DNA of 64,000 nt from Escherichia coli (lineage in GTDB: Bacteria; Pseudomonadota; Gammaproteobacteria; Enterobacterales; Enterobacteriaceae): the NCBI RefSeq assembly GCF_050320075.1, contig NZ_CP190018.1. One strand, given 5' to 3'. The position numbers are program-made. Below are positions 31,301 through 34,300 of this stretch, piece by piece; within the stretch, counting starts at the first letter, position 1; each line of letters opens with the position of its first letter.

Positions 31301-34300
31301 CCCCAGGTTTGCGCATCCTGACCCGGCAGGCCAAACAGCAGGTCACAGACCACCGCAGCACGGTCACGTTTGACCAGGCTTTCCATAAACGCAATGGCGG
31401 TTGGGCCATCCGAGGTGCGGGCCATTTTCTTGCGGATTTTGCTGTTAAACGACTGGATACCAATTGAGAAGCGGTTTGCTCCTGCATCAAGACAAGCATC
31501 GATTCGCTCAGCGTCAAAATTCAGTACCCGGCCTTCGATAGTGATTTCACAATCAGGGGCCAGTGGCAGCTTTTCTCGTAATATATTGATAATTCTGGCT
31601 AAATCGTGTGCAGAAAGCGCGGAAGGCGTGCCGCCACCGAAATAGACCGCGTGGATGGGGGCAGACTGATGCAATACGCTGTCCGCTTCCATTTCTATTT
31701 CACGAATCAGGGCGTCGGTATAATGAGCACACGCATCTTCATTAAAACGGTTCTGATAAAAACCACAAAACGTGCAGTGTGTTGCACAAAAAGGAATGTG
31801 TAGATAAACCAGTCGCTTACGTGGTGATACCGTTTGATTGAGCATCTCTTGCCAGGTCTGTGCCAGTTGCTCTTTGGCAACCGGAATGGCCCCACGAAAC
31901 GGCATCATGGCGCGCCTGTCTTTAAATGGCTGATCACCGTCTAAAGCAAAATGTGGCGTGAGATCCAGGGTGTTATTTGCGTTCATTCGTCTGATTTAAA
32001 TCCATTTATTGCGGCCAAAGCTGCTGGTGTAAAGACTCAACGACATCAGCAATACGCGGACCCATTCCCAGAATCAGGTTTTGATCAACGGTGATAATGC
32101 GCTGGTTTTTCCATGCGGCAGTGTGGGTAATTCCGGCAATAGAACGTAGCCGATTAATATCGCCATCGACCATTTGTGAGGTTACGACAATCACTTCTGG
32201 ATTGGCCGCAATCAGTGATTCTGCACTGTAGCTTTTGTACTGCTGGTAGGTTGCGACGTTTTCTGCTCCGGCAAGCGAAAGAATGGCGTCCGCGACGCTG
32301 CCTTTACCGGCAACCTGTGGCGCACTTCCGCCTGCGGAGAGAATAAACATGGCTTTAACCGGGGCTTTTTTGGCCGCCACGTTTTGCTGTACTCGCTCCA
32401 GGCGTTGGTTGATCTGTGTCACCAGCGCCTCGCCTTGTTCAGGAACCTGTAGCGTTTTTGCCAGTTGGCGAATGTTGGCGTACATCTGCTCAAGGGTGGC
32501 AGGCACACGCGGCAGGGTGACGACGTTGACTTTCTGCGCTCGTAATTGGTCGAGCACAATTTGTGGCCCGGCATCCTGCCAGGTAATTACGCTATCCGGG
32601 CGAAGTGACAAAATGCCTTCGCTGCTGAGTTGTTTCCAGTAGCCAATATGCGGCAGTTTGGCGGTTTCTGGTGGATAAGATGTCGTTTCATCGACACCAA
32701 CCACGCGTTCGCCAGCGCCCATCGCGTAGATTAGCTCCGTCAGCGATCCTCCTGCGACCACGATACGTTCGGCAGCCGTTACGCTAAAAGCCCAGCTAAG
32801 AGCCAGTACTGCCGTAAACAATTTTTTTCGTTTTACCGCGGTCTTCGCGGCAGAGGCCACGGCTGAAATACATAACGTCAGTGGGGAAAAAAGAAACGGC
32901 CTGGTGATGATCCTTGGCATAATATGAGAACTCTTATCAAGTTGAGAATGATCATGATTATCATTTGAGTTATATATGAAATACAACCGTCGATTCAATA
33001 CGCACGGCGTTACAAGCGTATTTATTTTTGATTTTTATCAAGATGCTTCGTCAGCTAACGTTCTTGTTACCGACTAAATTTCAGCGCGGGAAAAGCTGAG
33101 AACCCAGAGATATCGAGGCTTGCAGAGCAAAGCGAAGAGGAAATTATCACTGTTAACGACAAAGTTTAGTGATGAGGTCATGGGGGAATAACCATAAAAA
33201 TAAAGTGGTTTTCAGGGCGCGGGATAGGTTTCATAACCCCCTGTTTATTGTGTTAATGGCGGTTAAAAAAAGCTTGATCATAAAAAATTGATCGATAATA
33301 ATTCTCATTATCACGTTTGCGCTTAACAAAACACGACCATATGGATAACAAAACCATAGCATTTGCAAGGGATAACGCACAGCGCTCTTCACTCCTGATG
33401 GGGCATATCGTTTTGCCTGACAAAGAGGGCGTGCTTTTGCGTATTTGCCGAGATACCAGGCAATTTCATGGGATATAAACGCCTGTAAACTCACCCGGCG
33501 AATATTATCGCTCTGAATTTTAAATAAATTTATTTTTCGCCAGCCACCCCGGTATTAACCCAGGCAGCCAGCATTTTTTATTTTCCTCATGGAGAATCGC
33601 TATGTCACGTCCGCAATTTACCTCGTTGCGTTTGAGTTTGTTGGCTTTGGCTGTTTCTGCCACCTTGCCAACGTTTGCTTTTGCTACTGAAACCATGACC
33701 GTTACGGCAACGGGGAATGCCCGTAGTTCCTTCGAAGCGCCTATGATGGTCAGCGTCATCGACACTTCCGCTCCTGAAAATCAAACGGCTACTTCAGCCT
33801 CCGATCTGCTGCGTCATGTTCCTGGAATTACTCTTGATGGTACCGGACGAACCAACGGCCAGGATGTAAATATGCGTGGCTATGATCATCGCGGCGTGCT
33901 GGTTCTTGTCGATGGTGTTCGCCAGGGAACGGATACCGGACACCTGAATGGCACTTTTCTCGATCCAGCGCTGATCAAGCGTGTTGAGATTGTTCGCGGA
34001 CCTTCAGCATTACTGTATGGCAGTGGTGCGCTGGGTGGAGTGATCTCCTACGATACGGTCGATGCAAAAGATTTATTGCAGGAAGGACAAAGCAGTGGTT
34101 TTCGTGTCTTTGGTACTGGCGGCACGGGGGACCATAGCCTGGGATTAGGCGCGAGCGCGTTTGGGCGAACTGAAAATCTGGATGGTATTGTGGCCTGGTC
34201 CAGTCGCGATCGGGGTGATTTACGCCAGAGCAATGGTGAAACCGCGCCGAATGACGAGTCCATTAATAACATGCTGGCGAAAGGGACCTGGCAAATTGAT

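What the first reader, a model, noticed from the sequence alone, without database searches (positions are those of the whole stretch)
32921..33601. chuT / chuA divergent control region: two Fur-box-like sites and a FourU-like element
Fur-like palindromes lie at 32947-32965 and 33294-33312, and a U-run abuts the chuA Shine-Dalgarno sequence. Together these predict iron- and temperature-dependent expression. The first Fur site lies inside the longest chuT ORF, which argues for the shorter chuT start at 32920.
Basis: partly seen in the sequence, partly recalled or inferred. Interest (0 to 1): 0.35.

Follow-up and report, generated by a model that had tools for sequence, protein, structure and literature searches.

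The report
Known chuT–chuA iron/temperature control region

Summary
In the 64-kb window only two loci match the 19-bp Fur consensus with 3 or fewer mismatches: 32944-32962 and 33294-33312. Chance expectation is 0.01. The U-run and Shine-Dalgarno (SD) hairpin (33580-33597) passes the gathering score of Rfam RF02597 (shuA/chuA thermoregulator).

All of this is published for identical or near-identical sequence:
- Fur repression of chuA/shuA.
- The chuA FourU thermometer (Kouse 2013).
- The shuT transcription start 42 nt upstream of its ATG, with a Fur site at +1..+19 (Wei 2017). This maps exactly to 32962 and 32962..32944, and confirms the 32920 start.

- The 42-nt chuT leader is itself a published RNA thermometer.
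- The 291-nt chuA leader (+1 = 33311) carries published CyaR, RyhB and Esr41 inputs.
- That leader also carries Rho-dependent termination.

Both Fur boxes and the hairpin are conserved across Escherichia lineages. The 66-nt hairpin block is at least 99% identical in 2201 of 2235 chuA-positive E. coli genomes.

Verdict: real, correctly interpreted, already known, low interest.

The parts
32006..32920 (-). chuT/shuT coding sequence (periplasmic haem-binding protein), with its start codon ATG at 32920
   Evidence: RefSeq/PGAP annotation of the identical sequence and of the O157 and B2 alleles. The ATG is kept in every Escherichia lineage aligned. The published TSS excludes the longer TTG-32998 ORF.
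32921..32962 (-). chuT 42-nt 5' UTR, a published RNA thermometer. A hairpin pairs AUUCU (+14..+18) with the SD region AGAGU (+29..+33). The +1 is G at 32962.
   Evidence: Wei 2017: TSS 42 nt upstream of the ATG, and mutating U15/U16 abolishes thermoregulation. The window has U at +15 and +16 and the same fold. Fold energy is -9.0 kcal/mol at 25 C and -5.8 at 37 C. The z-score against shuffles is only 0.1.
32944..32968 (.). chuT Fur-binding site. The main 19-mer is 32944-32962 (GATAATCATGATCATTCTC on the minus strand, equal to +1..+19), with a second register at 32950-32968.
   Evidence: 16/19 and 15/19 matches to the consensus. Wei 2017 describes a site at +1..+19 with three mismatches, shown by EMSA and a 5-nt truncation. 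One change in E. albertii, otherwise invariant.
32969..32998 (-). chuT promoter: -10 TATAAC (32974..32969) and -35 TTGAAT (32998..32993), with an 18-nt spacer
   Evidence: Inferred by laying the 36-nt promoter geometry described by Wei 2017 onto the window sequence. The hexamers were not tested here.
33274..33302 (+). chuA promoter: -35 TTGATC (33274-33279) and -10 AATAAT (33297-33302)
   Evidence: Consensus scan. It lies 9 nt upstream of the published +1. Invariant across Escherichia lineages.
33294..33312 (.). chuA Fur box GATAATAATTCTCATTATC, covering -17..+2 of the chuA promoter
   Evidence: 16/19 on +, 17/19 on -. Invariant in six Escherichia lineages. Fur repression and in vivo Fur binding at chuAS are published.
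33311..33601 (+). chuA 291-nt 5' UTR (+1 = 33311). It contains the published repressive, Rho-dependent region +177..+217 (33487-33527), a CyaR pairing site roughly 15 nt upstream of the hairpin, and the Rho termination point +271 (33581).
   Evidence: Sy & Tree 2022 dRNA-seq, Term-seq and truncations. The numbering checks out: U273 = 33583 = -19. There are no indels between the window and O157 in the leader.
33414..33439 (+). Terminator-like hairpin plus U-run, coinciding with the published +129 3' end
   Evidence: Terminator scan. +129 from Term-seq. The island is largely conserved while its flanks diverge.
33573..33604 (+). chuA FourU RNA thermometer. The hairpin is 33580-33586 paired with 33591-33597, UUUU is 33581-33584, SD GGAG is 33591-33594, and AUG is 33602-33604.
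   Evidence: Rfam RF02597 at 60.1 bits against a gathering score of 58. Fold results. The published mutant positions -19 (U, the U·G wobble) and -17 (C) match the window sequence. At least 99% identical in 2201 of 2235 E. coli genomes.

Best explanation
The interval is the divergent control region of the E. coli/Shigella haem-uptake locus (chuTWXYUV to the left, chuAS to the right).

Iron control. With iron, Fe-Fur binds two 19-bp Fur boxes. One overlaps the -10 and +1 of the chuA promoter (33294-33312). The other lies at +1..+19 of the chuT transcription unit (32944-32962, with an overlapping second register). Binding blocks transcription in both directions.

Temperature control. Without iron both mRNAs are made, but each leader folds into a hairpin that pairs with its SD sequence. 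For chuA this is a 7-bp FourU hairpin (33580-33597). For chuT the whole 42-nt leader forms one hairpin. Translation is low at about 25 C and rises at 37 C.

Other inputs. The long chuA leader (+1 = 33311, 291 nt) is also a platform for Rho-dependent premature termination and for the sRNAs CyaR (activating), RyhB and Esr41 (repressing).

Basis. Shown here: the sequences, their positions, their statistical significance, their folds and their conservation. Taken from publications on the same elements in S. dysenteriae, EHEC and UPEC: Fur binding, the transcription starts, thermoregulation, and the sRNA and Rho effects. Inferred: that this particular strain behaves in the same way.
For: - Locus identity.
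- Fur boxes are the only two loci in 64 kb with 3 or fewer mismatches, expected 0.01.
- Rfam shuA_thermo is above its gathering score.
- The SD is fully paired in the predicted hairpin, z = -2.8.
- Published coordinates map onto the window nucleotide for nucleotide. These are shuT +1, Fur +1..+19 with 3 mismatches, U15/U16, chuA U273 = -19 and C-17.
- In silico versions of the published stabilising and destabilising mutants shift stability in the reported directions.
- Both Fur boxes and the hairpin are conserved in E. coli phylogroups, E. albertii and cryptic Escherichia clades, while the middle of the leader diverges.
- The 66-nt hairpin block is at least 99% identical in 2201 of 2235 genomes.
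- Fur ChIP-seq and ChIP-exo list chuAS and chuTWXYU as direct targets.
Against: - Nothing was measured in this strain.
- The nearest-neighbour equilibrium model keeps the chuA SD paired up to more than 60 C. Folding alone therefore does not reproduce a 25/37 C switch.
- The chuT hairpin is no more stable than shuffled sequence, z = 0.1.
- All predicted pairs are invariant in the six lineages compared, so there is no covariation support.
- The chuA -10 hexamer sits slightly far from the published +1, at 9 nt.
Confidence: 0.96

Rival explanations
1. The two Fur-like sites are chance AT-rich matches in an AT-rich intergenic region and do not bind Fur.
For: The region is AT-rich. Fur binding was not measured here.
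Against: The chance expectation is 0.01 per 64 kb and the next best site scores 13/19. The sites are invariant across Escherichia lineages while nearby sequence diverges. Published evidence includes EMSA and truncation for shuT and Fur ChIP for chuAS and chuTWXYU.
Confidence: 0.01
2. The chuA SD hairpin is a constitutive translational repressor, or merely an sRNA/Rho platform, rather than a temperature sensor. Any temperature effect would arise elsewhere.
For: The equilibrium folding model predicts the SD stays paired at 25, 37 and 42 C. The Rho termination point +271 falls inside the hairpin's 5' arm, and RyhB and Esr41 act at the same ribosome-binding site.
Against: The isolated element confers 25/37 C regulation on reporters. 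Stabilising (U-19C) and destabilising (U-19A, C-17A) mutants behave as predicted in Shigella and UPEC. The U273A effect was reproduced independently in EHEC.
Confidence: 0.03
3. chuT translation does not start at 32920 but at another codon, either the upstream TTG at 32998 or a downstream start.
For: A start at 32920 gives an unusually long presequence of about 49 aa before the predicted cleavage site SVTA|AE. The B2 allele has an in-frame ATG at codon 28 that would give a textbook signal peptide.
Against: The TTG at 32998 is upstream of the mapped +1. The window has GCG, not ATG, at codon 28. The ATG at 32920 is conserved in all lineages, sits 10 nt after an AAGAG SD, and is the start used by PGAP and by the thermometer study.
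Confidence: 0.05

Closest known systems
shuA/chuA FourU RNA thermometer (Rfam RF02597; Kouse et al. 2013, PMC3660397)
   Same: It is the same element. The 32-nt model is matched end to end above the gathering score. The hairpin, the U·G wobble at -19, the C at -17, the SD and the spacing to the AUG are all the same. It is the same gene in the same species.
   Different: Nothing in the element itself. The window's allele differs from EHEC and UPEC only elsewhere in the leader.
shuT Fur site and 5' UTR RNA thermometer (Wei, Kouse & Murphy 2017, PMC5458455)
   Same: A 42-nt leader, a Fur box at +1..+19 with three mismatches to the consensus, U15/U16 in the anti-SD arm, and a single hairpin that includes the SD and the AUG.
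   Different: The window has C rather than U at +22, in the hairpin loop, compared with O157 and B2. The predicted fold and energy are unchanged. The experiments were done in S. dysenteriae, not E. coli.
Salmonella agsA FourU thermometer (the founding FourU family, cited as positive control in PMC3660397)
   Same: A run of four U opposite the SD in a short hairpin directly upstream of the start codon, acting as a zipper-like thermosensor.
   Different: It is an unrelated gene (a heat-shock gene versus a haem receptor) with a separate Rfam model. Here only two of the four U pair with the SD core (GGAG). The other two pair with the AA just 3' of it.
Layered post-transcriptional control of the chuA leader (Sy & Tree 2022, PMC9002310)
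   Same: A 291-nt leader with +1 at 33311, a repressive region at +177..+217, Rho termination at +271, and a CyaR site upstream of the hairpin. The window and O157 leaders align without indels.
   Different: There are 11 substitutions between the window and O157 leaders (33311-33601). None lies in the last 100 nt or so.

Membership tests
FourU RNA thermometer / Rfam RF02597 shuA_thermo | The covariance-model match reaches the family's gathering score | tested here: met
   33573-33604 (+), 60.1 bits against a gathering score of 58, model positions 1-32 of 32
FourU RNA thermometer / Rfam RF02597 shuA_thermo | [quoted passage not shown] | tested here: met
   UUUU at 33581-33584 lies in the 5' arm. 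The stem is 33580-33586 paired with 33591-33597 and covers GGAG at 33591-33594. The AUG is 4 nt downstream. P(SD unpaired) is about 0 in the model.
FourU RNA thermometer / Rfam RF02597 shuA_thermo | The hairpin opens, and translation rises, between about 25 C and 37 C | tested here: inconclusive
   Predicted fold energy falls from -8.4 to -6.1 kcal/mol, but the equilibrium model keeps the SD paired. The function is shown only in publications on the identical element.
Fur-repressed promoter (Fur box) | Match to the 19-bp consensus GATAATGATAATCATTATC well beyond chance | tested here: met
   Two loci at 16-17/19. Expected 0.01 in 64 kb. The next best elsewhere in the window is 13/19.
Fur-repressed promoter (Fur box) | The site overlaps the promoter or early transcribed region, so that bound Fur blocks RNA polymerase | tested here: met
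   The chuA box spans -17..+2 relative to the published +1 at 33311 and overlaps the -10. The chuT box spans +1..+19 relative to the published +1 at 32962. The TSS positions come from papers, not from this strain.
Fur-repressed promoter (Fur box) | Iron-dependent binding by Fur protein | not testable with these tools
   Published: EMSA on the shuT leader, and Fur ChIP-seq and ChIP-exo on chuAS and chuTWXYU in CFT073, 042 and Sakai.
shuT 5' UTR RNA thermometer (Wei 2017) | A single hairpin formed by the 42-nt leader plus the AUG that occludes the SD, with U15/U16 in the anti-SD arm | tested here: met
   The minimum-free-energy fold pairs +14..+18 with +29..+33. U is present at +15 and +16. An in silico U15A/U16C mutant loses 2.3-2.4 kcal/mol. 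Stability is not above shuffled controls (z = 0.1).
HemP/HmuP-type small gene upstream of the haem receptor (considered for the long chuA leader) | A conserved small ORF with HemP-family similarity | tested here: not met
   The 53-codon ORF at 33317-33478 has no HemP hit in Pfam or NCBIfam at E up to 10. Substitutions show no codon periodicity: 9/13/12 at codon positions 1/2/3 against B2.

The most novel reading that the evidence does not exclude
The short hairpin plus U-run at 33414-33439 is largely conserved across Escherichia while its flanks diverge. It ends exactly at the published +129 Term-seq 3' end, which the authors did not explain with an intrinsic terminator. It might be a weak intrinsic attenuator that releases a roughly 129-nt Fur-controlled leader RNA with a function of its own, either as a 5'-UTR-derived sRNA or as an additional regulated attenuation step.
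Probability: 0.1. Interest if true: 0.3.

Novelty: already known. Interest (0 to 1): 0.06.

Why it matters
The region is a textbook-grade example of layered sensing: low iron AND host temperature, plus sRNA and Rho inputs, controlling haem uptake in pathogenic E. coli and Shigella. Recognising it confirms that the window carries the chu locus and settles the chuT start codon.

Tried and rejected
1. HemP relic or functional uORF in the 291-nt chuA leader. I recalled a resemblance between the 53-codon ORF at 33317-33478 and HemP. Pfam and NCBIfam give no HemP hit. Substitutions against B2 and O157 show no third-position bias. There is no SD before its ATG. Rejected.

2. RfaH ops element in the leader, considered because RfaH is reported to affect chuA. 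There is no match within 2 mismatches of GGCGGTAG inside the transcribed leader. The nearest, GGCGGTTA at 33258-33265, is upstream of the promoter.

3. Small ORF at 32976-33077 in the conserved block upstream of the chuT promoter. Its ATG is ATA in E. albertii. Rejected.

4. Covariation support for the hairpins. All 16 predicted pairs are invariant in six lineages, so this is uninformative.

5. Stability drops by 2.3 kcal/mol, but the model never opens the SD below about 60 C. It neither supports nor refutes thermosensing.

6. Other repeats or operator-like palindromes between the promoters. Only a weak 20-nt direct repeat (33324-33365) and an 11-nt inverted repeat (33497-33541) were found.

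7. The minus-strand promoter-like hit TTCTCA-N18-TATTAT (32948..32919) lies inside the chuT leader and over the ATG. I treated it as a consensus coincidence.

8. The Nagy 2001 paper (PMC98105) is not in the held library.

Full report
**What is there**

The window around 32921-33601 is 100% identical to an E. coli chromosome (strain YZLc1-3). It is 93-99% identical to 2,235 other chuA-positive E. coli genomes out of 5,426 complete genomes. RefSeq annotates shuT/chuT on the minus strand, ending at window 32920 (915 nt, 304 aa). It annotates chuA on the plus strand from 33602, followed by chuS, with chuW(hutW)/chuX(hutX)/chuY downstream of chuT.

**Check of the observation**

I scanned all 64 kb on both strands with the 19-bp Fur consensus, allowing up to three mismatches.
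- Only two loci match: 32944-32962 and 33294-33312. The expectation from dinucleotide shuffles is 0.01 matches.
- An exhaustive count shows 17/19 and 16/19 for these two, 15/19 for a second register at 32950-32968, and nothing above 13/19 anywhere else in the window.
It is the AATGAT-N7-ATCATT palindrome centred between the two overlapping registers, so it is the same site reported 3 nt off.

The U-run and SD feature is also real.
- UUUU (33581-33584) sits in the 5' arm of a 7-bp hairpin, 33580-33586 paired with 33591-33597.
- The 3' arm contains the SD GGAG (33591-33594), 4 nt before the AUG at 33602.
- The fold energy is -6.1 kcal/mol at 37 C, z = -2.8 against shuffles.
- Rfam's shuA/chuA thermoregulator model (RF02597) matches 33573-33604 end to end at 60.1 bits. 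The gathering score is 58.

**Mapping onto published experiments: chuT/shuT**

Wei, Kouse & Murphy 2017 (PMC5458455) report the following for shuT.
- They mapped the +1 by 5'-RACE to 42 nt upstream of the ATG.
- They found a Fur site at +1..+19 that differs from the consensus at three positions.
- They showed preferential Fur binding by EMSA.
- They lost iron regulation on deleting the first 5 nt of the site.
- They showed that the 42-nt leader is itself an RNA thermometer, and that U15A/U16C abolishes thermoregulation.

In the window the ATG is at 32920. This gives +1 = 32962 (a G). The stretch +1..+19 is GATAATCATGATCATTCTC, which equals 32962..32944 and has three mismatches. Positions +15 and +16 are U. 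The leader folds into a single hairpin that pairs +14..+18 with the SD region +29..+33.

Laying their 36-nt promoter geometry on the sequence gives -35 TTGAAT (32998..32993) and -10 TATAAC (32974..32969). The TTG at 32998 that opens the longest ORF therefore lies in the -35 hexamer, upstream of the transcript.

**Mapping onto published experiments: chuA**

- Kouse et al. 2013 (PMC3660397) showed that the shuA and UPEC chuA leaders confer post-transcriptional 25/37 C regulation through the FourU hairpin. U-19C stabilises it. U-19A and C-17A destabilise it.
- Sy & Tree 2022 (PMC9002310) mapped the EHEC +1 by dRNA-seq, giving a 291-nt leader, and reproduced the U273A effect.
- They added CyaR activation through a site about 15 nt upstream of the hairpin, and cited RyhB and Esr41 repression at the ribosome-binding site.
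- They found a strongly repressive region at +177..+217 and Rho-dependent termination at +271.

The window and O157 leaders align without indels, so +1 = 33311. U273 = 33583 = -19 is the U of the U·G wobble, and -17 is a C, exactly as published. The Fur box at 33294-33312 therefore spans -17..+2 and overlaps the predicted -10, AATAAT at 33297-33302. The -35 is TTGATC at 33274-33279. Fur ChIP-seq in CFT073, and ChIP-exo in 042, CFT073 and Sakai, list chuAS and chuTWXYU as direct Fur targets.

**Conservation**

- Across three E. coli phylogroup-level alleles (window, O157, B2 ST95), both Fur boxes, the chuT leader and the last 100 nt or so of the chuA leader are invariant or nearly so. The middle of the chuA leader diverges, with up to 13 differences per 40 nt.
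- A scan of one genome from each of 100,044 species for the exact hairpin plus AUG spacing returned only four Escherichia representatives: two E. coli-labelled records, E. albertii and Escherichia sp. MOD1-EC7003.
- In these lineages the chuA Fur box is invariant, the chuT box has one change in E. albertii, and the hairpin block is invariant.
- The 66-nt block 33545-33610 is at least 99% identical in 2,201 of 2,235 E. coli genomes.
- Because all predicted pairs are invariant, comparative analysis gives no covariation evidence for or against the folds.

**Limits of the in silico tests**

- ViennaRNA at 20-70 C keeps the chuA SD paired up to about 60 C. Only the energy changes, from -8.4 kcal/mol at 25 C to -6.1 at 37 C.
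- The published mutants shift stability in the reported directions.
- The chuT hairpin weakens from -9.0 to -5.8 kcal/mol but is no more stable than shuffled sequence, z = 0.1.
- Thermosensing therefore rests on the published reporter, mutagenesis and probing data, not on my folds.

**Alternatives examined**

- The long chuA leader is not a detectable hemP relic, and its 53-codon ORF shows no coding signature.
- There is no ops element in the leader.
- A 33-codon ORF upstream of the chuT promoter is not conserved.
- No further operator-like repeats stand out.

**Verdict**

The feature is already known in detail.

The only loose end with any novelty is the conserved terminator-like hairpin at 33414-33439. 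It coincides with the published but unexplained +129 3' end. I rate that a low-probability, modest-interest lead.

Noticed in passing
window 33414-33439 (+): A terminator-like hairpin (33414-33431) followed by UGCUUUUG ends at the position of the +129 Term-seq 3' end reported for the EHEC chuA leader. Those authors found no intrinsic terminator with ARNold. The island is largely conserved across Escherichia while its flanks diverge.
   Followed up: partly
window 32837-32839 (chuT codon 28); L003 chuT: In the B2 allele, codon 28 of chuT is ATG (GCG in the window and in O157). This would give a textbook signal peptide, MVKRKKLFTALLALSWTFSVTA|AE. In the window the only usable start is ATG 32920, which implies an unusually long presequence of about 49 aa.
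   Followed up: partly
L007 (Escherichia sp. MOD1-EC7003), about 125 nt corresponding to an insertion after window ~33474 (A2 columns 622-746): An insertion of about 125 nt that, from memory, resembles an ERIC/IRU repeat interrupts the chuA 5' UTR just upstream of the published Rho-dependent repressive region. The FourU block downstream is intact.
   Followed up: no
window 32941 (chuT leader +22): The window carries C at +22, in the hairpin loop, where O157 and B2 have U. Only 162 of 2,236 genomes are at least 99% identical over 32915-33000. The B2 allele also has U39C, which breaks one stem pair and is predicted to weaken the chuT thermometer by about 2.3-3 kcal/mol.
   Followed up: partly
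window 17940-18053 (-), 23833-23904 (-), 43834-43917 (-), 44068-44151 (-): Rfam gathering-level hits to GadY, ES205 and two AgrB antisense RNAs. dctR lies next to chuS in the identical strain. The chu locus therefore sits in the gad / acid-fitness-island neighbourhood.
   Followed up: no
window 33324-33365 (+): An imperfect 20-nt direct repeat (TAACAAAAC...) with 22-nt spacing at +14..+55 of the chuA leader, in the region reported to hold most of the (ARN)4 Hfq motifs.
   Followed up: no
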